DNA from: a virus
Length of the DNA stretch: 64,000 bases
Virus record (IMG/VR): IMGVR_UViG_3300030106_005205
Coordinates: 1-64,000 of that record
Direction: 5' to 3' (one strand)
The position numbers and the translations under genes are program-made. Below, piece after piece: positions 17,432 through 39,800 of the stretch. The notes beneath the pieces are model-generated. The model worked only from the letters and a program-made list of their open reading frames with translations, did no database searches and was not told the DNA's origin. Numbering within the stretch: position 1 is the stretch's first letter; each line of letters begins with the position of its first letter.

Positions 17432-17878
17432 ATGGATGATATTATAGAAAAGAATATGGGACTCGTAGCTTCTGTAGTCAATTCTTTTAAGCCAAAAAAT
17501 CATGTAGAAAAAGAAGACTATATGCAGGCTGGTAGAATAGGATTATGGAAAGCTCTTAAAAAACACGATCCATCAAAAGCCGCACTTTCCACATATGCTT
17601 GGAATCCAATCAGATGGGAAATTATCAAAGAAATTAAATCAATAAAGGCAGACAGGTATTGCTCAATATCTGACATAAGAATACCAGAATACAAAATTAA
17701 AAGTGAATTTTGGGAAAACTATCCTAATAATCTTACAGAGGAAGAATGTGAGTTGATTGATCTAAGAAGAATGGGATATACTTTGGAAGAGATCTCGAAT
17801 ATAGCTGGAAGAGGTCGCTCGTATGTCAAAAGAAGAATTTATACAGCAATACAAAAAATAAGAGAATGTAATGACTAA
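17432..17878 (+). CDS. Minimal sigma-70 family RNA polymerase sigma factor (regions 2 and 4)
   Basis: NMGLVASVV...EDYMQAGRIGLWKALKKHDP...STYA; GYTLEEISNIAG HTH. Confidence 0.85.
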   Translation: MDDIIEKNMGLVASVVNSFKPKNHVEKEDYMQAGRIGLWKALKKHDPSKAALSTYAWNPIRWEIIKEIKSIKADRYCSISDIRIPEYKIKSEFWENYPNNLTEEECELIDLRRMGYTLEEISNIAGRGRSYVKRRIYTAIQKIRECND

Positions 17879-19487
17879 AAAAAGAGTACTACTAGTCTCA
17901 GAGTCACACCACCTTGCATCTGGTTTTGGAACATATTCTAAAGAAATTTTGACTCGTCTTTGGGACACTGGCAAATATGAACTTGCTGAGTTCGCTGGAT
18001 ATGGAGATCTTGATAAATGTAAGGATGTTCCTTGGAGATACTATAGCAATACTCCAACAACCGATCAAGAAAAAAATGTATTCAATTCCAATCCAAACAA
18101 CTCATTTGGACTCTGGAGGTTCAATCATGTAGTTCTGGATTTTAAGCCAGATATTGTATTGACATATAGAGATCCTTGGATGGACATGTGGATAAATGAA
18201 TCTCCGTTGAGAAAGTACTTTCATTGGTTATGGATGCCAACCGTTGACTCATACCCTCAAAAAAGAAAATGGCTAGATGTATTCGAGCAATGTGATGGTA
18301 TACTTGCTTACTCAGAATATGGAATAAGGTCACTAAAAAAACAAAGTGACTTCATTACTACTCTTGATTGTGCATCTCCGGGAATACATCCAGAGGTTTT
18401 TAAGCCGGTAAAAGACAAAAAAGCTCATAAGAAGTCTTTTGGAATCCCTGAAGATTCTATTGTAGTTGGCACTGTGATGAGAAACCAAAAGAGAAAACTA
18501 TTTATAGAGTTAATGAAGGCATTTAGAATATTTTTAGATAATGCCCCAAAAGATATCGCTGATAAAACATTTCTTTATCTACATACTAGCTATCCAGAAA
18601 AGGTTGGATGGGACATTGAGTCTGGGATTGTTGAAAATGGGTTATCTTCAAAAGTTTTCTGCACATATATATGCAAGAGCTGTGAACACTGGCATATATC
18701 TAAATATGCGGGAGCAATTGCGACATGTCCAAAATGTGCAAACAGAACATCTTTTATGCCAAGTGTTAGTAATGGGCTCAGCACAGAAGATCTAGTAAGC
18801 GTATACAACATATTGGATCTTTATGTTCAGTATGCTATATGCGAAGGTTTCGGAATGCCCCAAGTAGAGGCGGCTTCTTGTGGAGTTCCTATTGCATCAA
18901 CTGATTACAGTGCAATGGAGGATGTCGTAAGGCATACAGATGGATATCCAGTACCCGTAAAGGTATTTTTCAGAGAGATGGAAACTTGGGCAGAAAGAGC
19001 GTACCCAGATAATGACGCATTGGCAAAAATAATTCAGGAGTTTGCTATGCTGAATGATAGTGATAGGGGTGCTAAATCTGACGCAGCTAGAAAAGGTGCG
19101 ATTAAAAGATATAAGTGGGATGACTCTGCTAAGGTTTGGGAAAAATATATAGATGAGTATACTCAAAAACGCAGAGAGCACTCTTGGGATTCTCCTCCTA
19201 GGTATTTACAAAATACTGGAATGCCGAAAATTGAATCAAATTCAGATTTTGTTAAATGGTGCCTATCAGTAGCATTGCAAAGACCAGAGTTAGTCTACAG
19301 ATATGCATATACTAACTACTGTAAAAATCTAGACAATGGTTGCTATATGGATGGACACTTGGAACCTTTTAGCAGAGAAAAGATGCTTGAAACTATAAAT
19401 GCGAAGATAAATGAAAATAACTTTTTTGAATCTATTAGGGCTGGTAAAAGACAGCCAGAACAGATAAATTATGTAAATGGTAATTAA
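17871..19487 (+). CDS. GT-B (GT4-like) glycosyltransferase with zinc-ribbon insertion
   Basis: SGFG, PDIV, RNQKRK, EGFGMPQVEAASCGVP signature; CKSC...CPKC insert. Confidence 0.88.
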   Translation: MTKKRVLLVSESHHLASGFGTYSKEILTRLWDTGKYELAEFAGYGDLDKCKDVPWRYYSNTPTTDQEKNVFNSNPNNSFGLWRFNHVVLDFKPDIVLTYRDPWMDMWINESPLRKYFHWLWMPTVDSYPQKRKWLDVFEQCDGILAYSEYGIRSLKKQSDFITTLDCASPGIHPEVFKPVKDKKAHKKSFGIPEDSIVVGTVMRNQKRKLFIELMKAFRIFLDNAPKDIADKTFLYLHTSYPEKVGWDIESGIVENGLSSKVFCTYICKSCEHWHISKYAGAIATCPKCANRTSFMPSVSNGLSTEDLVSVYNILDLYVQYAICEGFGMPQVEAASCGVPIASTDYSAMEDVVRHTDGYPVPVKVFFREMETWAERAYPDNDALAKIIQEFAMLNDSDRGAKSDAARKGAIKRYKWDDSAKVWEKYIDEYTQKRREHSWDSPPRYLQNTGMPKIESNSDFVKWCLSVALQRPELVYRYAYTNYCKNLDNGCYMDGHLEPFSREKMLETINAKINENNFFESIRAGKRQPEQINYVNGN

Positions 19488-19489
19488 AA

Positions 19490-20479
19490 ATGATAAATTG
19501 TTTAACAGTATCTCAGTATAGAGACTTATCAGAAGAAGGGCAAAAAGCATTAGAGCTAATAACATCTCTAGAAAATGAAAAGAATATACGTAATAAGAAT
19601 GAATATGTTTCTTTCTCTGAAGATAAGAAGCAGATTAAATTAGAAGATAGTACTAGATTTGAAATTGATATATGTATACAACACATGTTAAATGAAAAAT
19701 TTGTCAGAACAGAGTTCAAAGATGTTGGTATATTTGAACCAACTACAAAAAATGAAATCGGATACAATAATTTTCTTGACTTTATGGATGCGATTATTGT
19801 AAGAAGTTCACATCAGAGGGATATTCTTCCAGAACATCTAAAGAATAAAACACAAGTTATAAGACCTGTTTACTCTTTTCCCTCTAAAAGAGATCGTACA
19901 AAAAGAATCATATCAACCTTTATCTTTTCTTGCCAGCTAACCGATAAGATAGATGATATCCTAACAGCGTACTTCAACTCATTTACTATAAATGATAATG
20001 TATGCCTAGCAGTATTGTCAAGTCCTGAGCAGTTAATAAAAAAAATAGATGAGGTAAAAGGTAAACTTGGCTTATATAAAGGACAAGAGTTTTATCCAGA
20101 GATCAAGATAGTAAATAATCTTGACACACTTTTAAGTATATCTCATTGCTGTATAGAGATTTCAGGAACTTATAACATAAAGAACTTCTGCGCCTCCTCG
20201 TTAAAGTATGGAAATCCAATAATAACGTTAAAGAACAATGCAGTGCTAGAATGGATAGGTGCTGAGTGTTACTACATTGTAGATTCTCATCAAGACTTTG
20301 TTAGGTCAAATCAGACTTGTGAGTTTGTTCATAAGCTCTCACTAGGCGAAAAAATGAGAAGTGTGGCGTATGACAGGAGAGGTTTTTTAGAAAAACAAAG
20401 GTCTATAATGGAGGGCTACTTTAAGTCATTTGATTATCTGAAAAAAGATTCTATAGGAGAAATTTTATGTTCTCTGTAA
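19490..20479 (+). CDS. Divergent glycosyltransferase-like protein
   Basis: MDAIIV, YFNSFTINDNVCL, YGNPII resemble a degenerate GT-B; cluster context. Confidence 0.45.
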   Translation: MINCLTVSQYRDLSEEGQKALELITSLENEKNIRNKNEYVSFSEDKKQIKLEDSTRFEIDICIQHMLNEKFVRTEFKDVGIFEPTTKNEIGYNNFLDFMDAIIVRSSHQRDILPEHLKNKTQVIRPVYSFPSKRDRTKRIISTFIFSCQLTDKIDDILTAYFNSFTINDNVCLAVLSSPEQLIKKIDEVKGKLGLYKGQEFYPEIKIVNNLDTLLSISHCCIEISGTYNIKNFCASSLKYGNPIITLKNNAVLEWIGAECYYIVDSHQDFVRSNQTCEFVHKLSLGEKMRSVAYDRRGFLEKQRSIMEGYFKSFDYLKKDSIGEILCSL

Positions 20480-21321
20480 TGAATTGTATAAAAAGGGCAG
20501 CTCCTCTTACTAAAGATAGGAATATTGAGATACTTGTTATACAACAGTCTCGCGAAAAATATCTTCTAGACATGTGTAAGATTCCTAATGTAACAGTATA
20601 CTCTTATTTTAATAATTTAAATCTTATCGATTCTATACCCGATAACTTGGTTGTCATAAACGACTTAGACAATGTTTTCTCCAAATCACTCGATTACATA
20701 GTATGTATTGGTAAAACAAATAGTGCGCATATATCAAATGTTCTAAGGGAAAGGTTTTCAAGCTCTGTCATTCTTGTAAATGATACTACAGACGAAACAT
20801 ATTGCAATAGGCCTTTTGGCACTAGTGTCACCAACAGAATACCTACAAACTATGATATAAAGGTTTCTATATATCCAAACATTTGCAAGGAGTCCATAAC
20901 AATTCCAAACATAATGAGTGATACAATTATCGCACCAAAAGACGAACAGTTCTGTTTATTCGACAAGCTTGAAAAGCCAGTCTTAACTAGATATCTAGGC
21001 GCACTGAAAGATATTAACTGTCTGACATTCTCTGAAGACAATCTGTTAAGAAGTAGGGTATTTATTGATACGGTAGTTGGTGTGACAGAACATCTGATTA
21101 AAGCAGTGCAAAGTAATTGCTTTATTATTTGCCCATATTCTGAAGAAGCACAAGATCTAATAGGAGAAAATGGATTGACATACAGAGGTTTTGAAGAGTT
21201 GGCAAAACACATACAAACAGTAAAAGATGAAGTAAACTTTAAAATGATTGACCCTAGCAAATATTGCATATCAGAAGATAAATTTGTTAGATCTTGGGAA
21301 AAAGTTTTGAGAGGACAATAG
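20467..21321 (+). CDS. Divergent glycosyltransferase-like protein
   Basis: C-terminal VFID...LIKAVQSNC...ENGL...FVRSWEKVL resembles a GT-B C-domain. Confidence 0.45.
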   Translation: MFSVMNCIKRAAPLTKDRNIEILVIQQSREKYLLDMCKIPNVTVYSYFNNLNLIDSIPDNLVVINDLDNVFSKSLDYIVCIGKTNSAHISNVLRERFSSSVILVNDTTDETYCNRPFGTSVTNRIPTNYDIKVSIYPNICKESITIPNIMSDTIIAPKDEQFCLFDKLEKPVLTRYLGALKDINCLTFSEDNLLRSRVFIDTVVGVTEHLIKAVQSNCFIICPYSEEAQDLIGENGLTYRGFEELAKHIQTVKDEVNFKMIDPSKYCISEDKFVRSWEKVLRGQ

Positions 21322-21741
21322 ATGAAATTACTAATATATTCAGACCAGCAACCACCAATAGTGCCGCTAGACAATAATAGTATTGAAGTAGTGCATAAAG
21401 ACGATATAAATATAGACGACATACCGAATTATCTCTATGACGAGATTGAGTGCTATAATTATCTTGAATACACAGAGGATGATGGACTAGACAAATTGAT
21501 TGCTAAAATGAGTTCGAAAGCTACGCTTAGATTAAAAGGTGTGGATATATTTCAAGCTTCTAAAAGTTTTACTAGTGGCAATATATCAACTTCACAGATG
21601 TCAGAGGCAATAGCTAAAGGCAGGAGAAGATGCTTTAGTGTACACGAATTAGCAGAGTCAATATCTTCAAAAAATCTAAATGTTGTGTTCGCTGGAATAT
21701 CTGGAATAAACTATATGATCGAGGCAAAGAAAAATGATTAA
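21322..21741 (+). CDS. Hypothetical protein (degenerate methyltransferase-like)
   Basis: YDEIECYNYLEY...MIEAKK pattern; weak. Confidence 0.35.
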   Translation: MKLLIYSDQQPPIVPLDNNSIEVVHKDDINIDDIPNYLYDEIECYNYLEYTEDDGLDKLIAKMSSKATLRLKGVDIFQASKSFTSGNISTSQMSEAIAKGRRRCFSVHELAESISSKNLNVVFAGISGINYMIEAKKND

Positions 21742-22546
21742 TCAAGTACACACTAGCTGCAGAGATTGTGCTTTCGCTGAGTATACTAAAGGAACGCAAG
21801 TTGGCTGCGAATTTAATAGGATTGAATCGTATAAAAACTCAGGTGCAGAAGTCTTAGAAGCCTATGATGAAAATGGAAAAGAATTCTATGTTATTAATGA
21901 TAGGATTTGTATTTATCATAGAAGTAAAGACTGGGCAAAAAAGTATCCTACTTCTGATTTAAAAAGTGTTGTTAAATCACAATGCAAGATACCATTTCAT
22001 GCAATTATTATTCATAAAAAAGGACAGACTATACAAGAACTTGAATCTACGATATCTAGCCTTAGTGACCAATATAATCCTCCAACAGTAGTCTCTGTTA
22101 TTAACAGGAATATTGGAGATTCTTTGTACAAGACTAACATGATGATTGAGTCTGTATTTAAAAAATATGAAGATTCATTCAAATGGAGGGTACAAAGCAT
22201 TGTCGATCAAGAAAAACCAGAACGAGAGTGTATTGATTTAGCTATTGATGGGACATACTTTAAGTATAACTATCCATACTATATCACATTTTTTAGTGGC
22301 TTTTCTGTCCCAAAAGATTTTACAAAAGAGCTTGACAATGCAATAATGTTAGACAACAAGCAGGTCATTGTTGCTTATGGAGTTGATAAAACAGAAAACT
22401 GTATGTTGGTTAATAAACTTATGCATAGAAAACATACTGGAAATGCATTTTTAATTAATGTTGAGACTAAAATTCTAGAGCTGGAAGAAGACTCAGAAAG
22501 CTATTTCCATAATATAGAAGACCTATGTCCATGCCTTGTAGGATAG
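21734..22546 (+). CDS. Protein with N-terminal Cys cluster and GT-A-like C-terminal part
   Basis: CRDC...C...C, then LESTISSLSDQYNPP resembling a GT2 N-terminal motif. Confidence 0.4.
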   Translation: MINQVHTSCRDCAFAEYTKGTQVGCEFNRIESYKNSGAEVLEAYDENGKEFYVINDRICIYHRSKDWAKKYPTSDLKSVVKSQCKIPFHAIIIHKKGQTIQELESTISSLSDQYNPPTVVSVINRNIGDSLYKTNMMIESVFKKYEDSFKWRVQSIVDQEKPERECIDLAIDGTYFKYNYPYYITFFSGFSVPKDFTKELDNAIMLDNKQVIVAYGVDKTENCMLVNKLMHRKHTGNAFLINVETKILELEEDSESYFHNIEDLCPCLVG

Positions 22547-22914
22547 TCATAGCATCTCAAAATTTATTTAGAGAAATGCAAACATACAATGATTGTTATG
22601 TGTGGCTAAACCTCTATAATAGACCCAATTTTATAGAAAAAATATTCACTCAAGAAAGCTTTGATATATTTGGAATACTAGTAAAAGGGATGACATTTGC
22701 TAATGAAAATTCAGCAGATGTTATAGTCAAGCTATTTGAAGCTGTAGATGATTTAGCATGTATTATGACTGAAGAAATAGTAAATAACGAATACTGTGTT
22801 TTCATAAATACAAGACTAACCGGCGCTGTGATAAACACTAAAGAAATTATTCAAAATCAACAATGGAAGACTGTCTGTATTGGCGGATTGGTTAAACCGA
22901 ATGGCAAAACATAA
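22525..22914 (+). CDS. Hypothetical protein
   Basis: ORF filling the operon; overlaps neighbours. Confidence 0.45.
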   Translation: MSMPCRIVIASQNLFREMQTYNDCYVWLNLYNRPNFIEKIFTQESFDIFGILVKGMTFANENSADVIVKLFEAVDDLACIMTEEIVNNEYCVFINTRLTGAVINTKEIIQNQQWKTVCIGGLVKPNGKT

Positions 22915-23602
22915 AATTAAAAAATCACATGAAGATGAAATCACGGTTATAATACCTGCAGCAGGAAGAGGTAGGAGGATGAAGTCTTATGGGCCAAAAC
23001 CACTCATAAATATTGGGAGTTGCACCATACTCCAAAGACAGATAACTATGGTAAAATCAATTTTTCCAAATGCAAGATTTGTCATAGTGGCTGGATTTGA
23101 AGCTGATAAACTAATGTCTAGTACTCCAAAGGATTTTATAAATCTTGAGAATGAACTCTACGAACAGACCAATGTATGTAGAAGTGTTTCAATTGCGCTC
23201 AATGCGATTGATACAGAGAGGGTTCTTATAATTATGGGAGACCTCATCTTCAATGACAAAGCATTGTCCACGCTTGACTTTCATAAGTCTTGTATATCTG
23301 CTAATATAGATATAAATAGAGATCGTGAGGTTGGATGTATAGTATCCGCAGATGACACCTTATCAAATATGATGTATGATTTAGACTTGAAGTGGAACCA
23401 GATTATATATCTTCAAAGTAAAGAGTTAGATATCTTCAAAACAATCTGCAAGAAAAGAAAAAATAACAAGCTGTTTTTATTTGAAATAATAAACAAAGTT
23501 ATTGATAAGGGTGGTAAAATTAAGTGCATAGTAAATGATGAAGTAAAAGTAATAGATGTTGACACATCTAAAGACCTATTAAGAGCAGGTAGTATAATAT
23601 GA
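22901..23602 (+). CDS. Sugar/choline-phosphate nucleotidyltransferase (LicC/NTP transferase family)
   Basis: IIPAAGRGRRM...PKPL, EN..Y..TN, MGDLIF, IDVDT..DL. Confidence 0.85.
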   Translation: MAKHKIKKSHEDEITVIIPAAGRGRRMKSYGPKPLINIGSCTILQRQITMVKSIFPNARFVIVAGFEADKLMSSTPKDFINLENELYEQTNVCRSVSIALNAIDTERVLIIMGDLIFNDKALSTLDFHKSCISANIDINRDREVGCIVSADDTLSNMMYDLDLKWNQIIYLQSKELDIFKTICKKRKNNKLFLFEIINKVIDKGGKIKCIVNDEVKVIDVDTSKDLLRAGSII

Positions 23603-24369
23603 AGATAGCAATAGATATATCAAATCCATTTTCAAAGAAACTATTTGATAAACTGGTTAGTGTCAAAACAATACATAACCTAATTCCTTTTTATTGCGAG
23701 AGAACCCCTTTGATGAAGGTGTTCAAGGAGTCAAGAGCTGAAGCTTTTATATTGAATAGTAGATGTAATTACATTGATGCTTCTTATATAAAATCCTGTC
23801 AGGATGTAACAATAATACATTTAGGTAATGATTCTGAAGATATAGTAGTAGCCGATCTAGTGACAGGAGAGTCTTCTAGATACAATTGTTTAGGGTTTGA
23901 TAAGTTTATTGATCTAAACACATTCAAGCCATCACAGTTCGACAAAAAATATAAATCTGACTATGTGTGCATAACAAGTAATTTAAAAGATAACAACGAT
24001 CAAGTTCCTATTGAGATAATTAAAGAGCTTGCTAAAATAAAAACAAAGTTTATCGGCAGTACTAAAATAGATGTTCCAAACTATTTGGGACGAGTTGATG
24101 AAGAAGACATGATTAAATTTTGTGGCTCATCTAAATACTGTATAGATATAACAGGTAATGATTACTTAACATATCTAGCGTCAGGATCAGAAAATATTTT
24201 GAGTGCTCAGTATCACTTCAATTCTGTAGAAACTTTAATGGATGCGATTTCTTATGAAGATATATTTGAGTCAGAAGATCATAAAAAATGGATTAGGGAA
24301 AAGTACGAAGACATCGCAAGAAACAGTTACTCGTCTTTAGTACAGAACTTATTAGAATTTATAGGTTAG
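23599..24369 (+). CDS. Hypothetical protein (possibly a degenerate GT-B)
   Basis: 256-aa ORF; PNYLGRV motif; cluster context. Confidence 0.4.
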   Translation: MKIAIDISNPFSKKLFDKLVSVKTIHNLIPFYCERTPLMKVFKESRAEAFILNSRCNYIDASYIKSCQDVTIIHLGNDSEDIVVADLVTGESSRYNCLGFDKFIDLNTFKPSQFDKKYKSDYVCITSNLKDNNDQVPIEIIKELAKIKTKFIGSTKIDVPNYLGRVDEEDMIKFCGSSKYCIDITGNDYLTYLASGSENILSAQYHFNSVETLMDAISYEDIFESEDHKKWIREKYEDIARNSYSSLVQNLLEFIG

Positions 24370-24372
24370 CAA

Positions 24373-24783
24373 ATGATTGGTGTTATATCAGAAAAAATAA
24401 ACTTCTTACATAATTATAACTTAGATGGTAGTAATACATGTGTATTCTTTGATGGGTATATACCTCCTGTACTAATGCCTGACGTATGCCAGTTTTCGGT
24501 AAGTGGCATATTTGATTTTAGAGGCATAGCTGCTTCTACATGCATTGAATCAACAAAGACACTGTTGAATTCTAGCACTCCGTCCAAGAAGTTTTATCTT
24601 GTAGAAAATGCGGAATGGACTAATGCTGAAATATCATATAAGGACCTTATGCGTATTTTCTTTAATAAAGATTTAAAAATAGTTGCTTTGAATGAAGAAA
24701 TACATGAAATCATATCAGACTTTTTTAGAGAGCCCGACCTTCTCATGGAAAGTTTTGATTTAAGACTATTGGAGAATGTATAA
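24373..24783 (+). CDS. Hypothetical protein
   Basis: ORF coupled by TAATG to next gene. Confidence 0.5.
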   Translation: MIGVISEKINFLHNYNLDGSNTCVFFDGYIPPVLMPDVCQFSVSGIFDFRGIAASTCIESTKTLLNSSTPSKKFYLVENAEWTNAEISYKDLMRIFFNKDLKIVALNEEIHEIISDFFREPDLLMESFDLRLLENV

Positions 24784-25568
24784 TGGAATATTCCAAACTT
24801 ACTGAAAAGGAAAAGAAAAAGTTCATAAAAGATAATTATATTAAAAAGAAGCTTAGCTTTGCAGAAATTGCAAAAATTGCAGGAACATATTCTAATAAGA
24901 TTAGAAGAGATGCAAATAAGTTTGGTATTACTATAAGAAATCGTAGTGAAGCTGCAAAGATCGCGCTCAATCAAGGACGATCAGAACACCCTACTAAAGG
25001 CAAAGGTCATGATAAGTCTACTAGGCTTAAAATTAGTGAGGCTCAGGGTAAGGTATGGGATTCTTTAGATGAAGAAGAAAGACAAAAAAGGTCTGAGATA
25101 GGAAAGCAAAGCTGGAATAAAAAGAGTGAATCTGAAAAGCGTGAAGTTATAGAAAAGGGAGGTCAAGCTATCAGGGAGGCTTCTAGAATAGGTTCTAAGC
25201 TAGAAAGATATATATTGCAAGAGTTGATAAAGCTAAATTATAATGTTCAATTCCATAGAGAGCATGTGCTGAGAAATCATAGGCTAGAAATCGACTTGTA
25301 TGTAACAGATTTACAAACAGCTATTGAAGTTGATGGCCCGTCTCATTTTGAACCTGTATGGGGCGAAGAAAATTTAATCAGAAATCAGCGCTCAGATAAG
25401 CAAAAAACGGGTTTAATTATATCACAGGGAATGGTTCTGATAAGAATCAAGCAGGATAAGCGTATTTCACAACGATACTTTAGGAATATATTAAATAAAC
25501 TCGTTGAGGAACTTGAGAAGATTAAAACAAATTTTCCAGAACAGGATAAGAGGTATATAGAGATATGA
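24783..25568 (+). CDS. HTH + DUF559/Vsr-like endonuclease (possible free-standing homing endonuclease)
   Basis: LSFAEIAKIAG HTH; NUMOD3-like KGKGH...TRLKISEA; SKLE...EIDLY...AIEVDGPSH...DKQK. Confidence 0.7.
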   Translation: MEYSKLTEKEKKKFIKDNYIKKKLSFAEIAKIAGTYSNKIRRDANKFGITIRNRSEAAKIALNQGRSEHPTKGKGHDKSTRLKISEAQGKVWDSLDEEERQKRSEIGKQSWNKKSESEKREVIEKGGQAIREASRIGSKLERYILQELIKLNYNVQFHREHVLRNHRLEIDLYVTDLQTAIEVDGPSHFEPVWGEENLIRNQRSDKQKTGLIISQGMVLIRIKQDKRISQRYFRNILNKLVEELEKIKTNFPEQDKRYIEI

Positions 25569-26311
25569 GTAAAGCAAAAGCAAAGAAAACAGATTTTGAA
25601 GACATTGTAGAAGTAGTTGAGGATACTTTGGAAACAAAGGAAGAGGATATTGTTATTCGGCCACAAGACCCTGAGTGGAGTGAATATGTGCTTGATCAAA
25701 TGCATGACAGCGAACTAAAAGATGGTAATCCTACAGTTGATGGTTTACGTCGTGTTACAGAGAGAATATATGGTGAGATTATTCAATCTTCAAGTGAAAT
25801 TTTTAATTACAATACTGATCGTGGCATTTGTACTGTAAAGCATACTTTAGCGATCCAAAAATACGCTACGGATACTATAATAACTGTAGATGGTTGTGTT
25901 GATGTTAAGTATCAAAACATTCCACACCCTTTCAACCAACATCTTGTTTCGACTGCAGACACGCGCGCCGAAGGGAAAGCTCTTCGTAGAGCATTAAAGC
26001 TTCGAGTAGTGACTGCCGAAGAAGTACAGCAGACATCAGAAGATGATGTTCTTGCCGCTGAAGAAAATATCACAGATCAACAGATCTTGGCTATTAATCA
26101 GATGTGCAAGAGACTGGACGTTAATTTGGTTGAGGGTGTAAAGAGCGTTTGTCCTAACGCAGACTCAATCAGAGATTCAAGCAACCTCCAAGGCCGTATG
26201 CTGTTAAGTACTCTATCCGAGTATCAACGTAGTCCAGCATCCATTCCTGAAAACCTTGTTGGTTATAACCCACAGTGGAGAGACACTTTTGATAGCGGAG
26301 GTAAAAAATAA
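25565..26311 (+). CDS. Putative single-strand annealing protein (Rad52/Sak-like)
   Basis: DGLRRV...TADTRAEGKALRRAL; C-terminal ITDQQ module. Confidence 0.5.
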   Translation: MSKAKAKKTDFEDIVEVVEDTLETKEEDIVIRPQDPEWSEYVLDQMHDSELKDGNPTVDGLRRVTERIYGEIIQSSSEIFNYNTDRGICTVKHTLAIQKYATDTIITVDGCVDVKYQNIPHPFNQHLVSTADTRAEGKALRRALKLRVVTAEEVQQTSEDDVLAAEENITDQQILAINQMCKRLDVNLVEGVKSVCPNADSIRDSSNLQGRMLLSTLSEYQRSPASIPENLVGYNPQWRDTFDSGGKK

Positions 26312-26697
26312 TGAAAGCTAATGTGAGAGCAACAGCAGATTTATCATTTCAAGTTGATGCGGAAACCGAAGAAGAACTTTTTAAGCAAATTGCAAGAGTT
26401 CAGGAGGTCTTCCAACATCAGTCATGTGGAAAATGCAATTCTACTGATGTAAAATTTGTGTGCCGTCATGACAGCTCAGAGAACGACTGGCTTGAGGTAG
26501 TCTGTAAAGAATGCCGAGCAAAAGTAATCTTTGGGCGCACCAAGAAAGGTGGTCAAATCTATCCAAAGATCAGATGGGATCAACTTTCACAAAAGCAACA
26601 AGAGCAAAGGATCAATGAAAAGTCCTATGCTGACAAAAATAGAGGCTTCCTGCCTCACAGAGGGTGGTTTATTTATAAGCCACAGGGCGCCAGCTAA
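26311..26697 (+). CDS. Zinc-finger hypothetical protein
   Basis: CGKC...CKEC; GGAGG RBS. Confidence 0.55.
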   Translation: MKANVRATADLSFQVDAETEEELFKQIARVQEVFQHQSCGKCNSTDVKFVCRHDSSENDWLEVVCKECRAKVIFGRTKKGGQIYPKIRWDQLSQKQQEQRINEKSYADKNRGFLPHRGWFIYKPQGAS

Positions 26698-26750: not shown

Positions 26751-27506
26751 TTAACGCCTTGTAAAATTCCTACACACGTTTTTGAACCAAAGTTTTTCTA
26801 GACTCTTTGTATCTACCTTACTTGGTTTTGTGATAGCAATAGCGTATCCAGATCGTTCGTTATTACTAAAGTACTCAAGAAGGAACTTCTTCATCTTATC
26901 TTGCTCTTTATACTCAGGTAGATGTATTAAGTTTTCCTCTAGGAACTCATCTACTGCTGGTTTGACACCATTGAATACTTCTTCATAATAGTAATCATCT
27001 ATTACAATCACTCCTCCTTCTTTAAGTCTATTCCAAACAAGTGGTAGTATATGTTTGGTGGGCTCATATATATCTAAATCTATGTAACAAAAAGATATTT
27101 TATTAGGTAAGTCGCCTTGTTCAATATCTCTGACATCTACTTTTAATATCTCGTCTGGAATAGGTGTATCAAATTTATTAAATGTGTTTAGAAAATTGTC
27201 TAGACTTGAAGCAAGGTCGCCATCCTCACAGTGTCCGTGAGCATTTGAATCTTTATCAGAAGTCCCTAATATACCTTCAAAGCTATCAAATACCCAAAAC
27301 TCTTTATCAGGACAAAAGAGATCTATAAAAGTTTTTATAATAACAGATGTCTGACCATAGGAACATCCTACCTCTATTATATCACCACCCTTATCTTCAC
27401 ATAAAAAAGAAGTATTCCACAGGTGTTTTAGTATAAGAGATTTTCTTTCTATCGTGGTCATATTAGGAAATGCACATAACTGTTCTAGAAATTGTCTTAA
27501 GTCCAT
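26751..27506 (-). CDS. TylF/MycF/NovP-family O-methyltransferase
   Basis: GDIIEVG, VFDSFEG, ISFCYIDLDIYEPT, GGVIVIDDY, GVKPAVDEF. Confidence 0.88.
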   Translation of the reverse strand: MDLRQFLEQLCAFPNMTTIERKSLILKHLWNTSFLCEDKGGDIIEVGCSYGQTSVIIKTFIDLFCPDKEFWVFDSFEGILGTSDKDSNAHGHCEDGDLASSLDNFLNTFNKFDTPIPDEILKVDVRDIEQGDLPNKISFCYIDLDIYEPTKHILPLVWNRLKEGGVIVIDDYYYEEVFNGVKPAVDEFLEENLIHLPEYKEQDKMKKFLLEYFSNNERSGYAIAITKPSKVDTKSLEKLWFKNVCRNFTRR

Positions 27507-27515
27507 TGTTCTTCT

Positions 27516-28523
27516 TTATATATGTAAGTTTGTTGCCCTAATTACTTCTACGGAGTTAACTCTTGTGTCTAGAATAATGTCTAGATTCTCTTGCACTGTA
27601 GTCAAAAATTCATGATACATTGGATGATCTTTATTTGATATATCTTTTGACTCAAAAAGTTTTCTGTCTGTTCTTCCCCAAAATCCCATCATTGTCAAAT
27701 TAACAAATGAAGCCCCATATATATTAAAGGCTTGCTCTATAAATAATGGAATCTCTCGAAAGTTATCTTGTTGTACAACCATATTTACATGTATTTCTTT
27801 TCCTAATTTGCTTACAAACTGCATAGCATCTGTTAATTCGGAAAATGTTGACCCAAGTCTAGTCTTGTTATAGGTTTCCTCTGTGGCCGCGTCAATACTA
27901 ACCTTAATATTTTTTATATTGCTATGTATATTTTTTATTGAATCCCAGTAACGAGGAATCAGTATTCCATTAGTAAATATTTCTATACTCAAATCATTGT
28001 ATAATGAAGGATCTAGCTGCTGAAGTATCTTTCTCCAAGCCGGGCTAGCAAAAGGATCTCCAGAGCCTATACACTCTATCCAAGTAATACTATCTTTAAA
28101 TGTGTCAAGTACTAAATTAGTTTGCTCAAAGACAGCTTGCTGGTTTTTATCTATTATAGGCCGAATCCTACATGTCCAGCAATGCAGGTTACAAGTTTGG
28201 TCATTAGCAAAAGTTATATATCTTGGCCCTTCCTGCATCACAGGAGTCATATAGCTATCTTTGTATTGAACGTGCTTTGGAGCCGATGATAGAACAGGAC
28301 AATTGAGACACAATCTAGAATCAGAAGAAAGCCATGATGACCGCAAGTTCTGGAATATCTCATGATTCCACATATCCCACAGATTTCTGAAGTCTCCCTT
28401 TACTATCATATCGTTATGGTTACTAAACCAAGAGCCACAACATGTCATATAGTGTGGATAAGGATAAAAAGTTGCTTTATTTAGAACGTGCAGAGTGTGA
28501 AAGGGATGATTGCAAAATCTCAT
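27516..28523 (-). CDS. Radical SAM protein with N-terminal SPASM/Twitch-like domain
   Basis: CNLHCWTC (CxxxCxxC), GDPF, TNG, VSIDA; N-terminal CxxPF...CC...W...CxxCP. Confidence 0.85.
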   Translation of the reverse strand: MRFCNHPFHTLHVLNKATFYPYPHYMTCCGSWFSNHNDMIVKGDFRNLWDMWNHEIFQNLRSSWLSSDSRLCLNCPVLSSAPKHVQYKDSYMTPVMQEGPRYITFANDQTCNLHCWTCRIRPIIDKNQQAVFEQTNLVLDTFKDSITWIECIGSGDPFASPAWRKILQQLDPSLYNDLSIEIFTNGILIPRYWDSIKNIHSNIKNIKVSIDAATEETYNKTRLGSTFSELTDAMQFVSKLGKEIHVNMVVQQDNFREIPLFIEQAFNIYGASFVNLTMMGFWGRTDRKLFESKDISNKDHPMYHEFLTTVQENLDIILDTRVNSVEVIRATNLHI

Positions 28524-28795
28524 TCCTCTTTCTCTGTTGTTTTCTTGAAGAAAGGAAACAGGCGATTTAAGAATCTTTTTCTTTCTTTACACCCACATCC
28601 GCGAATTCCAAAGACTCTTTCCATCCTTTCTGGAGTAACGCCCATCTTGCTTAATACAGATTCTATTGCTGTCCCTAAGCCCTCTTCATTTTCTGGGAAT
28701 ATAGAATGTTCGTCCTTAACACCCTCTTGTGCTAAGTGCTCCCTAAACTTATCTGCTAGCTGATCATCAGACAGATTGTCATAATTTTCACTCAT
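28520..28795 (-). CDS. Small Cys-motif protein (domain B)
   Basis: EGLGTAIE...GCGCKERKRFLN; paralogous to the C-terminus of 28788-29249. Confidence 0.6.
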   Translation of the reverse strand: MSENYDNLSDDQLADKFREHLAQEGVKDEHSIFPENEEGLGTAIESVLSKMGVTPERMERVFGIRGCGCKERKRFLNRLFPFFKKTTEKEE

Positions 28796-29249
28796 CTTGT
28801 TTTCCTTTGTTTGTATAAGAAAATATTTTGTTAAACCAAGTTTTTCTTTCGCTGCATCCACATCCGGGGCCGCCTAATATCTTTTCTATTTTATCTTGAT
28901 TTATACCAAACTTATTTAAAACTTTTTCTATCGTATCACCAAGACCCTCTGAATGTTTATTAATATCAATACCAGAATCTTTCATTTCTTTAATTGCCAT
29001 ATCAGCAGTCTTATCCATCTCTGTTTTTTTTCTCATCTTCCTATCATAGTTTTTTCTGACTTCGTTGTTATGAACACCTTTCATGGTAGCGGTTTGTAAG
29101 AATAGAGTTCTATACCTAACGTCTGTTTTACATAGGTGATGAAGCCTTTGTGTCATAGATTTTTGTAATAGAGGACAATATCCTGCAGCTTCACAATCGC
29201 ATTCGAAACCCTCTTTTGACATTTTTTCATAGTCATATTCATCTTGCAT
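28788..29249 (-). CDS. Cys-motif protein (domain A + domain B)
   Basis: CDC..YC..L..MT..L..CK and EGLGDTIE...GCGCSERKTWFN. Confidence 0.6.
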   Translation of the reverse strand: MQDEYDYEKMSKEGFECDCEAAGYCPLLQKSMTQRLHHLCKTDVRYRTLFLQTATMKGVHNNEVRKNYDRKMRKKTEMDKTADMAIKEMKDSGIDINKHSEGLGDTIEKVLNKFGINQDKIEKILGGPGCGCSERKTWFNKIFSYTNKGKQDE

Positions 29250-30264
29250 AATAAATTTCCCCTGAGTTTGGACAAACAACAGTCTTTCCTTGTGTGTATA
29301 CTGATATTTTTTTCGCTAATAAATCATCACTCTCTATAAATATTTTAGCTCTTGACTTAAGAAAAATGTCGCCTTTATATTTGGAAACATTTTTTATGAA
29401 CGAGGCATCTCTAAAAGATTTATCAAAAGGATACATATATAGTTGGTTATATCTTATATTATTGTTTTTTAACCAAGTCTCTGTTATGGCTCTGTATTTT
29501 TCTAGTCTTGCAGTAACAATAGACATGCACATATTTGATCTAGGTATTCTAAAATCAATAGGCTCAACAGTACTTATAAAATCTACGTAAAGTTTTTCGT
29601 CTTCGCATATATCATCAGGAACATCCGGACAGAATATACCATCTAAATCAAACATAGCTGTTTCTGTAAAGTAACTATTAAAAAAATGCCATTCTAGATA
29701 GTGAGGACGTGCAAGTTCAAGACCATAGAAATCTACAAACTTCTTAGACTCAGGAGTACAATACAAACAAGCATATTTATTATTAGGATATTTCTTTCTG
29801 ACCCTTCTAATCTCTTTTCCTGTGTAGCACGTGTCATCAATGAATAAAATTTTACCCTGAACTTCTGAGTGTGATTTCATCCTTTTTCCACCAGACGATG
29901 TTGAAGAGGAACATTTAATCAAGGTATTTCCGCAACTGGAAAGTGTATACAAAGGTTTATTTAAAAGAACTGCGCATATAGATGCAACTACCATTCCAGA
30001 TCTAGGCACCCCAACAATACATTTTATATTCGCGTTTGCTATCTTAGGGATAAGATTGTTTATGCAGTCTATTGGGATATCAGAGACTTTTTTGAACTGA
30101 TGGCTAGTTACTTTATCTTCGGAAAAGATAACGGGCTCCTTATACAGCTTAGATCTAGAAGATGGATGACTCTTACAAAACTTAACCAAACTAGGAGTCA
30201 TCATCCTATTAAGATTATTGCAATAAGTAGAAGATATTGGGCAATCACATTTATCAAGAGACAT
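29239..30264 (-). CDS. Phosphoribosyltransferase-HAD phosphatase fusion with N-terminal Cys domain A
   Basis: VGVPRSG and ILFIDDTCYTG (type I PRT); FDLDG, VTAR, K, FIESD (HAD). Confidence 0.8.
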   Translation of the reverse strand: MSLDKCDCPISSTYCNNLNRMMTPSLVKFCKSHPSSRSKLYKEPVIFSEDKVTSHQFKKVSDIPIDCINNLIPKIANANIKCIVGVPRSGMVVASICAVLLNKPLYTLSSCGNTLIKCSSSTSSGGKRMKSHSEVQGKILFIDDTCYTGKEIRRVRKKYPNNKYACLYCTPESKKFVDFYGLELARPHYLEWHFFNSYFTETAMFDLDGIFCPDVPDDICEDEKLYVDFISTVEPIDFRIPRSNMCMSIVTARLEKYRAITETWLKNNNIRYNQLYMYPFDKSFRDASFIKNVSKYKGDIFLKSRAKIFIESDDLLAKKISVYTQGKTVVCPNSGEIYYAR

Positions 30265-30270
30265 ATTAAC

Positions 30271-31053
30271 TTACTCAGTTATAGTAATTGATATTGTTTG
30301 GTCGTTTTCTCCCCCTTCGCAACAGTCACAATTCCATCTTGTTCCGCTAGCTTCAAAGTCAAGCATAAAAGGGTCGCATGTTCCATTTACAAGTGAAAAC
30401 ATATTAAATATATCTAGAGCTGCTCCAGCATGAGCCGATGGCAACTGTGGCACGTCATAATATCCAGTGGGGCAATGACAATAGTCATCTATGCTAGTAC
30501 CGTCTCTTCCAGACAAAGGAATGAATCTCATAGTCAGTTGATAGTTGCACACATGGCATTCTCCAGTTGATCCGGGCCTTACACCACCCATTGATCCCGG
30601 AGTTTCACAACAACATAAAGATAGATTAATTTTTGAACCGGAACAAGGAGGGTCAGGATCACACAAAACTCCGGAATACTTACCAAATTTTTCTTCGCGT
30701 ATTGGTTTTAGATAATATGGGCCTAGATCTTTATAACATGTAGTAGTAGTTCCTGCTAATCCGGGATTCTCACCTGAACATATATCTATTCCATCTCCTT
30801 GGTTTAATGGTATTTCTACACTTAGACCACAAGGAGAAACAGTTAGACTTGCTGTTAATGTAGTCTCATCTGGGCATGGGCAACAGGTATATGGAAAACA
30901 CGGACCTCCATCTTCATGAGTGCTATACAGAGGCATATCGCTTGTGCAGTGCGACTCACAATCATTCCCTATATTCCCACAAACACAGCATTCACTATCT
31001 GGCATTCCTGCTGAAATAAATTTTGGCTCTTTGACTTCAAAATCGTCTGGCAC
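30271..31053 (-). CDS. Cys-rich putative tail-tip protein
   Basis: 25 Cys in 260 aa; last gene of the tail run; AAGGAG RBS with GTG start. Confidence 0.5.
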   Translation of the reverse strand: MPDDFEVKEPKFISAGMPDSECCVCGNIGNDCESHCTSDMPLYSTHEDGGPCFPYTCCPCPDETTLTASLTVSPCGLSVEIPLNQGDGIDICSGENPGLAGTTTTCYKDLGPYYLKPIREEKFGKYSGVLCDPDPPCSGSKINLSLCCCETPGSMGGVRPGSTGECHVCNYQLTMRFIPLSGRDGTSIDDYCHCPTGYYDVPQLPSAHAGAALDIFNMFSLVNGTCDPFMLDFEASGTRWNCDCCEGGENDQTISITITE

Positions 31054-36849: not shown

Positions 36850-39800
36850 TTATGCATAGGCGCCCGGAGGACCATTTATCTGACTCACTACGTCCCCACC
36901 GGCTGGAGCATTATTCAAGTCCACCGAACCAACACCTTCCTTTACAGCCTCCACAACCATGGATTTAATTGAATTAGCCAGTTCTGTAGCATTACTTATT
37001 GTTACATTGATTTCGCCTACATTAATTTGGAATCCGTCTTTGACACCATTTAAGGCTTGTGCAAGGTTATTCATTGCTACGTCTGGACCAGCAACTCCAC
37101 CTCCAGCGGCAGCAGGACCGGCAGCAGGAGGACCAGCAGCAGCAGGACCGGCGTTAGCTCCAAAAGCCGGCTTGGGCATTTGTCCTGTTTTTATATAGTC
37201 TTGAACTTGGCCTTTTTGAAGCTTGCCTGAACGAAGCATGTTTCTAGCTTGGTTGATACGCTGTGCTTTGCCTAACTGTCTTTCTTTAGTTGCTGATAAT
37301 ATATCTTCTTTGCTCTTAAATCCTCTAGCTTCTCTCCCTTTATCAGTTAGAGCTCCAGACATCGGATCTATATTTCCAGCGGCTAAGTCCTGTTGCCTTC
37401 TAAACTCTATAGCTGCAGAAACCTCCTGATTTGTAACCCTACTACTTAGATAGCTGTCTTTCTTTAATAATCCTAACTTTGGATCATAACCTTTGAAGTT
37501 TCTTATTTTCCCTTGAGGAATTAAACCTTGATCTTCTGCAAGACTCTGAGGAATATCATACTCCAGCCTTGCTGCCCCTGTACCATCTTCATCAGTCATC
37601 AATCCAGTGCCTTCAAACTCGCCTCTTTTTATAGCATCGGCTAGTCTGAGCTTAGAATTACTTATACCGAACTGTGATTCAACTGTACCTACAGGTCTTC
37701 CTCCACGTTGTTTATTAAACCTCATTCTTCTTTCCATCTCAGTTTCTCGCTTTTTAGGCGCTTGAGAAACCCCTTGTATAGGTTGGAATGGAGTGCCGCC
37801 TGCTGGACGACCAAGTTGTGCATTTAAGGCCTCATCATCATAAAGACGGGCATCAAACGCACTCATTGTCGGATCAAATTTCAACATCGCTTCGCGATCT
37901 GCTACAAATTGTTGAGCGCTAGGAGAAGCATCTAATTTAGCTTTTCTTTGAGCTGCCATTTCTGCAAGCTTTGCCTCTGCTTTTTCCTCGTCTGGACGTA
38001 AGAAGTCATCAAGCGACTTTTGTTCTGCTTTTCTTAACCCTTCTTGATGCGCTTCCAGTGTTGCTTCAGTTCGCCTCAAATCATCTAATAACACGGTTCT
38101 ATCTGTGTTCCCAAGGTCGAGACCTCCTCTCATGTCGAGACCGCCAACCTGCTCAACACGAGAACCTCCTTTCTTAAAGAAAGCTCCTGAAATCCCGGTG
38201 CCTCTCTGTCTCTTTTTTATAAATTCTTTTCCGCTTAGAGGCGATCCAGAGTCATCAAATCCGGTTAGTGTTGATCCCTCTTTAGTCTCCTTATCAAGAA
38301 TTTCAGCTAAAGAATCAAGGCCTGTAGCACCCTTTTCTTTCATCAAAGAGCCAAGATCCTTCTCTCGTCGCATTGCCCTGTTTTCTTCATCGAATTTTCT
38401 GAGATTCTCTTGAGCAAGCTTAAACTGATCCTCACTTAGTTTGACAGAATCCCTCATCCGAGCAACTCTAGCTTGATTAGCCTTATTAATCTCAGTCTGA
38501 TTAGCCCTTGCCTCATCAGCAGACTTTCTTTCTGAAGCCAATCTCTCCTCAAGGACCTTTTCTTCTTCCTTAAGAGTTTTAAATCTATTAACATTACCTC
38601 CTGTAAGTGCCTTAATCTGTTCTCCCCTCTTTATAGCGGCAGGGTTTTTCCTCACTTTGCCGGGTTCAATATTCTGGAAGCCACCGCCTCCTGCCGCTAC
38701 AGCTTGTGCGGCGGCAGCGGGAGCTGCGGCAGCAGGTTGTTCTGGCGGCGCTTGATTTGGATTTACATTAAACTGCAAAGCTCGCTTAAAATTAAGCAAC
38801 TCAACCGTAGTGTCCCTTAATGCTTTTTGCATAATATCCGCTGCTGTTTTTGAATTGTTTACAGCATCGCTAGCAAGCTTGGCGTTATTCTTGAGTGCTT
38901 CAAAAGCTGCATTTTGTAATTTAGCAATTCTATCTGCTTCATTTTTTGCATCGTTTATCTGATCTCCTAGATTAACATTTTCAAAGGCATTAGCTGGAAG
39001 CTGTATTCCAAGCTGCCCCAGTCCGCCTACCGCAGCGCCTCTACCTAGCTTAAAGCCATTATCAATTGCCTTCTTCAAGGCTTCAGGATTTGCTCCTAAA
39101 TCAAGCAATAACTGGTCAAACTCTCCGCCAAGAACTTTAGCAGCCTCATCTAGGTTGAGAGGAATTCCCTTTTGAAGCTTCTGAATAGTTGCGAATGTTT
39201 TTCTAATATCTAGAGCTTGCTCTCTTGCTCCTTTAAAATCTCCAGCCCTTGCTCTATTCTGAACTTCTCCCAGTTGTCCTAAAAGTCCAACTAGTCCTTT
39301 TCTTGATGCATCTTGTCTAGATTGAAGTTCGGCTATTTTATTTTGTACAGCGGTCAATGCTGATGTATTTTCGGCAAGTAATTTTAGCGCTTCAGTATTT
39401 CTGGAAAACTCATCCTTCAGTCCAGCTAATTCTGTTAACTCATCCTCATTTAGTGGTTGACCTTCTCTTTTTGTTTGAAGTTCCGTTATCCTTCCTCTGA
39501 TTCTACCTTGGGCTTTACCAATAGCTGTAGGATTTGTTTCTCCTCCAGTTAATATAGCAATTCTCTTTCCTAAATCTGCAACAACTTGCTGAATATTTGC
39601 ATCTCTTCTTCCTACATTGCCTATTCCTCGTATATCACGAACTCTATCTGCTAGATCTAGCTGTTTTAAGTCTATTTTTCTAACTGCATCTGCTATTTTA
39701 AATTCTTGTGCCAGTCTTTGAAGTGTAGCTTGCTCAACCTCTCTCATTGAGTCAATTATATCTGCAAGTGTTTCCGTAATAGTTTTTCCACTTTCAGAGA

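What the first reader, a model, noticed from the sequence alone, without database searches (positions are those of the whole stretch)
26751..30264. Tail-operon modification cassette linked by a chain of shared Cys domains (A-enzyme, A-B, B)
Seen: straight after the Cys-rich tail-tip gene come PRT-HAD, two small proteins, a radical SAM enzyme and a TylF methyltransferase. Domain A (CDC-x4/5-YC-xx-L-xxx-MT-xx-L-xxx-CK[ST]-xxxx-R) occurs at the N-terminus of both 29239-30264 and 28788-29249. Domain B (EGLG[DT]xIExVLxKxG...GCGCxERKxxxN) occurs in both 28788-29249 and 28520-28795. Inference: A and B are metal-binding adaptor tags that tether interchangeable tailoring enzymes to the tail tip or its assembly site, a plug-in system I do not recognise as described.
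Basis: partly seen in the sequence, partly recalled or inferred. Interest (0 to 1): 0.7.

Follow-up and report, generated by a model that had tools for sequence, protein, structure and literature searches.

The report
Shared cysteine tags in phage tail cassette
A large marine phage ends its tail operon with two small non-enzyme proteins built from two undescribed cysteine modules; module A also heads many phage sugar-modifying enzymes, whereas module B is a common phage domain of unknown function that is not specific to tails or enzymes.

Summary
Domains A and B occur exactly where stated. B-to-B similarity is E=4e-17. A-to-A is E=1e-3 pairwise and is confirmed through the wider family.

The flanking enzymes are a type I phosphoribosyltransferase-HAD fusion, a radical SAM enzyme and a TylF methyltransferase.

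Bacterial PRT-HAD homologues lack it.

The prediction fails for B. B is a widespread phage module with the signature GLGD...CGC..RK..LN (phrog_32048/27568). It mostly lies after a sigma-like gene and before terminase, or inside virion gene blocks. None of 154 such loci held a relative of my 23 reference glycan enzymes.

In more than a dozen non-identical relatives of this phage, the A-B protein always sits at the end of the tail operon, directly after a Cys-rich protein or separated from it only by a PRT-HAD gene. Two lineages lack both. The enzymes around it are swapped in and out.

My best reading (confidence about 0.4) is that A-B and B are non-catalytic scaffold or assembly partners of the Cys-rich tail-end protein, and that A-tagged tailoring enzymes plug into them. 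Metal binding and physical tethering are untested.

Other first readers in this scan flagged the sigma-adjacent form of B on other DNA. A and B have no Pfam family and no fold match.

The parts
30271..31053 (-). Cys-rich tail-end protein (260 aa, 25 Cys, 9.6%), the conserved upstream partner of the A-B gene
   Evidence: Fourth gene after the tape measure. Homologues or equally Cys-rich proteins (6.9-11.5% Cys) lie upstream of A-B in every A-B locus long enough to show its upstream gene. No Pfam, PHROG, PDB or Atlas match.
29239..30264 (-). A-PRT-HAD enzyme (341 aa), a candidate PRPP-dependent ribofuranosyl transferase plus phosphatase with an N-terminal A module
   Evidence: AF2 pLDDT 90.6. 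The PRT domain matches XPRTases at Foldseek E=3.5e-9. phrog_8995 and phrog_415 hits. 106 homologue clusters, about 35 with A. The dual gPRT plus HAD architecture is described in PMC11127046.
30127..30258 (-). Domain A copy 1 (CDC-x6-C-x14-C), N-terminus of the PRT-HAD enzyme
   Evidence: Profile hit in the phage's own record. Pairwise match to copy 2 at E=1e-3. Conserved in PRT-HAD homologues P0152-P0189.
28788..29249 (-). A-B protein (153 aa): A module, long helix, B module; no enzyme domain
   Evidence: 238 relatives at E<=1e-3. 45 of the best 150 representatives carry both A and B (43 as plain A-B, 2 with an N-terminal extension). AF2 pLDDT 83: hairpin plus two helices (A), helix 62-91, three helices (B). 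No fold match in PDB.
29079..29213 (-). Domain A copy 2
   Evidence: Four Cys invariant or 98% conserved in 58 copies.
28806..28985 (-). Domain B copy 1 (GLGD...GCGC.ERK..FN)
   Evidence: Signature conserved in 284 unique copies.
28520..28795 (-). B-only protein (91 aa): N-terminal helix plus B module
   Evidence: E=4e-17 to the B half of the A-B protein. A homologous gene follows A-B in most relatives.
28538..28696 (-). Domain B copy 2
27516..28523 (-). Radical SAM enzyme (335 aa), a variable member of the cassette
   Evidence: PF04055 at 39.1 bits and a CNLHCWTC motif. Homologues are present only in L207 and L231/L232 among the relatives.
26751..27506 (-). TylF-type (macrocin O-) methyltransferase (251 aa), a variable member of the cassette
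   Evidence: PF05711 at 58.9 bits. Present in L084, L205 and L206; absent in L085, L087, L088 and L115.

Best explanation
What is shown. The region is the 3' end of the tail operon of a large marine siphophage (about 150 kb). It holds a conserved non-enzymatic core: the Cys-rich tail-end protein, the A-B protein and usually a B-only protein. Around this core lies a hot spot where glycan-tailoring enzymes are gained and lost. In this phage they are an A-tagged PRT-HAD, a radical SAM enzyme and a TylF O-methyltransferase. A is a phage-specific module with four invariant or near-invariant Cys at the N-terminus of sugar-modifying enzymes. B is a separate, widespread three-helix phage module with near-invariant GLGD, C-G-C, R and N positions.

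What is inferred. A is probably a small zinc knuckle. A-B and B act as non-catalytic scaffold or assembly subunits that work with the Cys-rich tail-end protein during tail maturation. A-tagged enzymes join them through the shared modules (A with B, or A with A), so that different enzymes can be plugged in to decorate the distal tail. The PRT-HAD would add ribofuranose from PRPP, and the methyltransferase would O-methylate a sugar.
For: (1) A sits on varied glyco-enzymes: sulfotransferase (L089), GT8-GT4 (L094), GT8-GT2 (L096), GT8 (L101, L102), GT2-like (L090) and PRT-HAD. Bacterial PRT-HAD homologues lack A.

(2) Synteny in more than a dozen non-identical relatives. The order is Cys-rich, [PRT-HAD], A-B, [B], [second PRT-HAD, radical SAM, TylF, sulfotransferase-like or methyltransferase-like], then the convergent p128 gene. 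This holds even for A-B subgroups only 35-40% identical to each other.

(3) Joint absence. L231/L232 and the complete 167-kb relative G005 have neither a Cys-rich protein nor A-B. They keep B-only and A-tagged enzymes.

(4) Fusions. L088 and P0007 join PRT-HAD to A-B, and that enzyme then lacks its own N-terminal A. L223 carries A, a B-like segment and PRT-HAD in one chain. P0057 joins Cys-rich repeats to B.

(5) In G005, A-PRT-HAD with methyltransferase-like and sulfotransferase-like genes lies among long ORFs that I read by eye as tail-fibre genes.

(6) The genes are tightly translationally coupled.

(7) The gPRT plus HAD two-step ribofuranosyl transfer is established chemistry (PMC11127046).
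Against: No physical interaction, metal content or glycan was tested, and no multimer prediction was available.

B is mostly found where there are no glyco-enzymes and no tail genes. Its near-invariant polar residues suggest a specific activity of its own rather than a passive tag.

A-tagged enzymes in other phages lie next to replication genes, not tails.

All A-B loci with enough flank to place them belong to one broad phage group. The link with the Cys-rich protein therefore rests on conserved synteny plus one or two loss events.

The target of the enzymes (virion, host glycan or DNA) is unknown.
Confidence: 0.4

Rival explanations
1. A-B (with B) is a dedicated maturation factor for the Cys-rich tail-end protein. 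It would be a tail-fibre-assembly-type chaperone that delivers metal or handles thiols and disulfides through the CGC motif at a helix start. The neighbouring enzymes would be unrelated cargo in a permissive insertion site. A on enzymes would be only a structural zinc knuckle.
For: A-B follows the Cys-rich gene in every A-B locus long enough to show it, also where no enzyme is present (L085, L087, L115, L226-L230). Both genes are lost together in L231/L232 and G005. Fibre chaperone genes classically lie just downstream of their fibre gene (general knowledge). The middle residue of CxC is Gly in 86% of 284 copies, and the motif starts helix 132-142 of the model. P0057 is a Cys-rich repeat protein fused to B.
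Against: Very Cys-rich neighbours occur only in the A-B family, not around the many other B genes. This reading does not explain why the same A module heads so many glyco-enzymes, nor the PRT-HAD::A-B fusions. There is no similarity to known chaperones or oxidoreductases.
Confidence: 0.25
2. B is a nucleic-acid- or RNA-polymerase-binding regulatory module. A-B and B would be late-gene regulators or packaging accessories that merely sit at an operon end, with no role in tail modification.
For: In 53 of 80 B loci a B protein with a basic N-terminal tail and a C-terminal extension lies directly after a Sigma70_r2-like gene and before the small and large terminase genes. The same order is seen in cultured Nonlabens phage P12024L: gp35 sigma-like, gp37 B. 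The three-helix layout has conserved R, K and N on the last helix. Earlier readers proposed an anti-sigma or pac-site role.
Against: B-only genes also sit in the middle of virion structural blocks and in a GT/MT cluster of Microcystis phage Mel-JY01. No HTH or anti-sigma family was detected. The zinc-binding anti-sigma motif (H-x3-C-x2-C) is absent. The strict adjacency of A-B to the Cys-rich gene is left unexplained.
Confidence: 0.15
3. The A-tagged enzymes do not act on the virion. They would remodel host envelope glycans (to exclude superinfection or free progeny from debris) or glycan-modified phage DNA. A would target them to host glycan-assembly machinery or to DNA.
For: Known gPRT-HAD ribofuranosyl transferases act on polysaccharide intermediates in the cytoplasm (PMC11127046). 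A-GT8 genes in L094-L102 lie next to replication genes. The window phage has a further GT and nucleotidyltransferase block on the plus strand after its polymerase genes.
Against: No ThyA-like pyrimidine hydroxymethylase was found in the window record or in complete G005. The Tet/JBP test was uninformative. Tailoring genes repeatedly lie at the tail-operon end or among what I read as fibre genes. A has no membrane segment.
Confidence: 0.15
4. The shared motifs are chance resemblances between cysteine-containing stretches.
For: The pairwise A-to-A match alone is weak (E=1e-3).
Against: B-to-B is E=4e-17. Hundreds of relatives exist. Cys columns are invariant or nearly so. Shuffles give about 0 matches against 2 observed.
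Confidence: 0.01

Closest known systems
Dual-domain PRPP-dependent ribofuranosyl transferases of bacterial polysaccharide synthesis (gPRT plus HAD phosphoribose phosphatase; PMC11127046 and its reference 2)
   Same: A phosphoribosyltransferase domain is fused to a HAD phosphatase domain. The PRT fold is confirmed. A HAD DxDG-type motif is present. Bacterial homologues about 312 aa long exist.
   Different: The phage enzymes carry an extra N-terminal four-Cys module (A) or other Cys-rich heads. Activity, donor and acceptor are untested. I could not compare with a characterised member directly.
Virion glycosylation by phage-encoded glycosyltransferases in mycobacteriophages (Freeman et al. 2023, cited in PMC12619734)
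   Same: Sugar-modifying genes are placed with or after structural genes. The idea that virion proteins are the substrate is shared.
   Different: No shared tag or adaptor proteins are described there. Here the enzymes are PRT-HAD, radical SAM, O-methyltransferase and sulfotransferase-like, and no glycan has been observed.
Tail-fibre assembly chaperones encoded directly downstream of fibre genes (lambda Tfa, T4 gp38 type; general knowledge)
   Same: A small non-structural-looking gene lies immediately after a distal tail gene and is conserved together with it.
   Different: No sequence or fold similarity was found. A-B shares its modules with enzymes and with many non-tail phage proteins.
Docking-domain systems (cohesin-dockerin; NRPS/PKS docking domains; general knowledge)
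   Same: Small modules recur on different catalytic subunits and on a non-catalytic scaffold, with natural fused and split forms.
   Different: This is an analogy only. There is no homology and binding has not been shown.
PHROG families phrog_32048 and phrog_27568 (unknown function)
   Same: Relatives of B match them.
   Different: The window's own two B proteins do not reach E 0.01 against them. Neither family has an assigned function.

Membership tests
Type I phosphoribosyltransferase fold | PRT Rossmann-like core with a PRPP-binding loop | tested here: met
   AF2 model (pLDDT 90.6) matches E. coli and Yersinia XPRT at Foldseek E=3.5e-9 to 1e-8. Pfam PF00156 scores only 15.7 bits, below its cut-off. 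Many homologues carry PF00156.
gPRT-HAD ribofuranosyl transferases | HAD-family phosphatase domain fused to the PRT domain | tested here: inconclusive
   FDLDG motif; phrog_415 (polynucleotide kinase/phosphatase) at E=1.2e-5; source names 'HAD superfamily protein' on homologues. No direct comparison with a characterised member was made.
gPRT-HAD ribofuranosyl transferases | Transfer of ribose-5-P from PRPP to a glycan acceptor, followed by dephosphorylation | not testable with these tools
   Needs an enzyme assay.
Radical SAM superfamily | CX3CX2C cluster motif and the Radical_SAM domain | tested here: met
   CNLHCWTC motif; PF04055 at 39.1 bits against a cut-off of 29.5.
TylF macrocin O-methyltransferase family | PF05711 domain above the gathering score | tested here: met
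   58.9 bits against a cut-off of 23.
Zinc-finger or zinc-knuckle modules (for A) | Four metal ligands in a compact fold, and bound zinc | tested here: inconclusive
   Three Cys are invariant and the fourth is 98% conserved in 58 copies. A confident hairpin plus two helices is predicted. No Pfam, PDB or fold match. Metal was not measured.
Zinc-binding anti-sigma factors (for B) | H-x3-C-x2-C motif and pairing with a sigma factor gene | tested here: not met
   B has C-x-C and no conserved His. No anti-sigma family was detected. Only the B-plus-extension subgroup lies next to a sigma-like gene; the window's B genes do not.
phrog_32048 / phrog_27568 (for B) | Significant profile match | tested here: inconclusive
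   Relatives match at E 4.7e-7 to 6e-4. The window's own B proteins gave no hit at E<=0.01.
Phage virion glycosylation systems | Glycan attached to a virion protein by phage-encoded enzymes | not testable with these tools
   Only gene content and position are available.

The most novel reading that the evidence does not exclude
A and B are a cognate docking pair. Large marine siphophages would use an A tag on interchangeable glycan-tailoring enzymes and a B (or A-B) scaffold to assemble a modular tailoring complex at the Cys-rich tail end. This would be a plug-in system comparable in logic to cohesin-dockerin, previously undescribed in viruses.
Probability: 0.2. Interest if true: 0.8.

Novelty: new variant of a known kind. 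Interest (0 to 1): 0.55.

Why it matters
Phage sugar-modifying genes are usually annotated one by one. Here, a single small cysteine module marks a whole set of different tailoring enzymes in a group of large marine phages: GT8, GT2, GT4, sulfotransferase and PRPP-dependent ribosyl transferase. A non-enzymatic protein carrying the same module travels with a Cys-rich tail-end protein.

If the modules mediate assembly, this would be a simple rule for how phages swap surface-decorating chemistry. That in turn would affect host range and recognition.

Independently, B is one of the more widespread uncharacterised phage modules. I found at least 489 and 525 confirmed stretches in two capped and overlapping scans. 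It has an almost invariant GLGD...CGC..R....N signature and three distinct genomic settings, so it is a good target for structural and biochemical work.

Tried and rejected
- Near-identical DNA search in cultured phages: no match.
- Profile search for longer fused forms (406-2000 aa): nothing, which is weak evidence only.
- Several alignments were too diverse to seed locus searches. The A10 subgroup gave no viral locus.
- Sequence search of PDB with A and B profiles: only chance-level hits.
- Foldseek against PDB with the A-B model: best E 6.7. Full VIA-align scan: best Z 3.5. BFVD: only uncharacterised B relatives.
- Protein Atlas: only unnamed viral clusters for A-B and nothing for the Cys-rich protein.
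- P0057's Cys-rich part has no relative among the fetched loci and no similarity to the window's Cys-rich protein.
- The idea that B generally accompanies Cys-rich structural proteins is rejected. Proteins with more than 8% Cys occur only in the A-B family.
- The idea that B generally accompanies glyco-enzymes is rejected at phmmer sensitivity: 0 of 154 loci.
- DNA hypermodification as the target has no support. No ThyA-like gene was found, and the Tet/JBP control did not ring.
- A region-restricted homologue search with an A module found only 7 proteins.
- Cellular genomes: only 6 hits in MAG bins, probably phage contigs.
- Literature searches found no description of A or B.
Full report
**The genes**

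The window is part of a 74.8-kb IMG/VR virus record estimated at about half a genome. A 2592-aa tape measure gene at 36850-44628 is on the minus strand. Four genes follow it, encoding proteins of 550, 889, 472 and 260 aa. The last has 25 Cys.

The five genes of the finding come next, each overlapping its neighbour by an ATGA-type junction.

- The TylF and radical SAM assignments pass Pfam's own cut-offs.
- The 341-aa protein is a type I phosphoribosyltransferase by fold. Its AF2 model has pLDDT 90.6 and matches xanthine PRTases at Foldseek E=3.5e-9.
- Its C-terminal half is HAD-like: an FDLDG motif, a phrog_415 hit, and homologues named HAD superfamily.
- A PRT plus HAD fusion is the architecture of the PRPP-dependent ribofuranosyl transferases of bacterial polysaccharides (PMC11127046).

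**The observation**

B is shared by 28788-29249 and 28520-28795 at E=4e-17. A is shared by 29239-30264 and 28788-29249 at E=1e-3.

Both are families. The A-B protein has 238 relatives at E<=1e-3 among 1.84 billion representatives. Of the best 150 representatives:

| Architecture | Count |
|---|---|
| B alone | 61 |
| A-B | 43 (plus 2 with an N-terminal extension) |
| B plus a C-terminal extension | 22 (plus 3 with an N-terminal extension too) |
| B preceded by more than 60 residues | 13 |
| A without B | 4 |
| Other (B-B, A-A) | 2 |

In 58 A copies three Cys are invariant and the fourth is 98% conserved. In 284 B copies the GLGD, C-G-C, R and N positions are 97-100% conserved, and the Gly between the two Cys is 86%.

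**What A is**

Loci found with A profiles show A at the N-terminus of different enzymes:

- a sulfotransferase inside a UDP-GlcNAc-epimerase and GT4 cluster (L089);
- GT8-GT4 (L094), GT8-GT2 (L096) and GT8 (L101, L102);
- a GT2-like protein (L090);
- PRT-HAD enzymes;
- a class of about 400 aa with no assigned domain.

Among 106 PRT-HAD homologue clusters, about 35 carry A. These are all environmental, about 340 aa long. The bacterial ones, about 312 aa, start directly with the PRT domain. Some other variants carry different Cys-rich heads.

A and B are almost absent from 185,579 cellular genomes, with 6 hits in MAG bins. A has no Pfam, PDB-sequence or fold match.

**What B is**

Two capped and overlapping scans of viral contigs confirmed at least 489 and 525 B stretches. 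I saw three settings.

1. A protein of about 130 aa with a basic N-terminal tail, B, and a Cys-containing extension. In 53 of 80 loci it lies directly after a Sigma70_r2-like gene, followed by small and large terminase. Cultured Nonlabens phage P12024L shows the same order.
2. B-only proteins of 50-90 aa inside blocks of virion structural genes, in 14 loci.
3. The A-B and B genes of the window's phage family.

None of 154 B loci outside this family holds anything similar to a panel of 23 glycan-enzyme sequences by phmmer. One exception in another collection is Microcystis phage Mel-JY01, where a 62-aa B gene lies in a GT/MT cluster.

Relatives of B match phrog_32048 and phrog_27568, both of unknown function.

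**The family picture**

More than a dozen non-identical relatives share the tail genes and the convergent p128/p248/p261 block.

| Locus | Gene order after the tail genes |
|---|---|
| Window | Cys-rich, A-PRT-HAD, A-B, B, radical SAM, TylF |
| L207 | Cys-rich, A-PRT-HAD, A-B, B, second A-PRT-HAD, radical SAM |
| L114 | Cys-rich, A-PRT-HAD, A-B, B, sulfotransferase-like, methyltransferase-like |
| L088 | Cys-rich, PRT-HAD fused to A-B (no N-terminal A), B |
| L084, L205, L206 | Cys-rich, A-B, B, TylF |
| L085, L234 | Cys-rich, A-B, B |
| L087, L202 | Cys-rich, A-B |
| L226, L227, L230 | Cys-rich (6.9, 11.5 and 4.7% Cys), A-B, then unrelated genes |

The last row comes from divergent A-B subgroups.

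Two lineages lack both the Cys-rich protein and A-B, yet keep a B-only gene and A-tagged enzymes. One is L231/L232. The other is G005, a complete 167-kb distant relative. In G005, A-PRT-HAD with methyltransferase-like and sulfotransferase-like genes sits among long ORFs that I read by eye as tail-fibre genes.

Three conclusions follow.

- The enzymes are interchangeable.
- A-B is linked to the Cys-rich protein.
- A on enzymes does not depend on that protein.

**Mechanism**

The A-B model is confident (pLDDT 83). It shows a hairpin plus two helices (A), a 30-residue helix, and three short helices (B). The CxC motif lies at the start of the last helix.

I favour a scaffold or assembly role for A-B and B with the Cys-rich tail-end protein, with A-tagged enzymes docking through the shared modules. 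The fused and split forms (L088, L223, P0007, P0057) are what one expects of interacting modules. This is inference, and no interaction was tested.

The main rival is a chaperone, metal-handling or thiol-handling role for A-B alone, with the enzymes as unrelated cargo. A regulatory role for B is suggested by its sigma-adjacent form, which earlier readers also proposed. Host-glycan or DNA targets for the enzymes remain open. I found no ThyA-like hydroxymethylase in the window record or in G005.

**Limits**

- No multimer prediction was available, and model coordinates could not be inspected.
- Pfam and PHROG look-ups were exhausted (12 of 12).
- Neighbour gene calls in fetched loci are my own longest-ORF calls.
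- All A-B loci with enough flank to place them belong to one broad phage group, so independent evolutionary events are few.

**Verdict**

A and B are undescribed modules. The cassette is a new variant of phage glycan-tailoring gene sets.

Noticed in passing
L004-L083 (for example L031:10007-10405); Nonlabens phage P12024L gp37 (L225:5001-5360): A B-domain protein of about 130 aa has a basic N-terminal tail and a C-terminal extension (CL..EY.YL...IYNRVF...C.SC). In 53 of 80 loci it lies directly after a Sigma70_r2-like gene and before small and large terminase. It may be a sigma partner or a packaging accessory.
   Followed up: partly
L116-L133, L186 and others (for example L120:6652-6804): B-only genes of 50-60 aa are embedded in a conserved block of virion structural genes (phrog_13704, 14543, 13977 and a 2729-aa phrog_14478 protein) in 14 loci.
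   Followed up: partly
L223:4995-6392; L217:586-1929; P0111: Single chains combine A with a B-like segment (G..L...I...G....C..C......LN or G.AL...GI..GC.C...MD..G..WC). In L223, PRT-HAD follows. The B-like variant may link B to a wider family.
   Followed up: no
P0190-P0192, P0200, P0222, P0240-P0252: Other PRT-HAD homologues, apparently viral, carry different N-terminal Cys-rich heads (paired CxxC motifs) in place of A. This suggests a general need for a small Cys module on these enzymes.
   Followed up: no
window 24783-26697 (+); homologues in L084-L088, L226-L235 and G005: The convergent genes p261, p248 and p128 are the best-conserved markers of this whole phage group (E down to 1e-161). 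p128 has paired CxxC motifs. By eye, p261 looks like an HTH plus a small endonuclease-type C-terminus; this is unverified.
   Followed up: no
L085:5191-9144; L087:2507-9043; L114:1-7887; L115:3062-8965; L231:3631-8982: The window's separate 889-aa and 472-aa tail genes are fused or expanded into single proteins of 1317-2628 aa in relatives.
   Followed up: no
L090, L092, L094, L100, L101 (for example L094:4422-6928): Phages with A-GT8 genes encode one or two proteins of about 410-425 aa with twin-arginine-like N-termini next to the glycan genes. This is read by eye only and was not annotated.
   Followed up: no
L209:2318-3511, L208, L218 (about 397 aa); L091:7913-9847: One class has A plus an unassigned domain, with a weak DUF6171 hit at E=1.4e-3. 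Its truncated L091 copy (L091:9995-10681) follows a 644-aa protein with an FGE-sulfatase domain (PF03781, E=4e-33).
   Followed up: no
window 17871-24783 (+): The plus-strand block includes a MobA/IspD-like nucleotidyltransferase (22880-23602; PF12804 at 46.5 bits). The neighbouring ORFs have no Pfam hit.
   Followed up: partly
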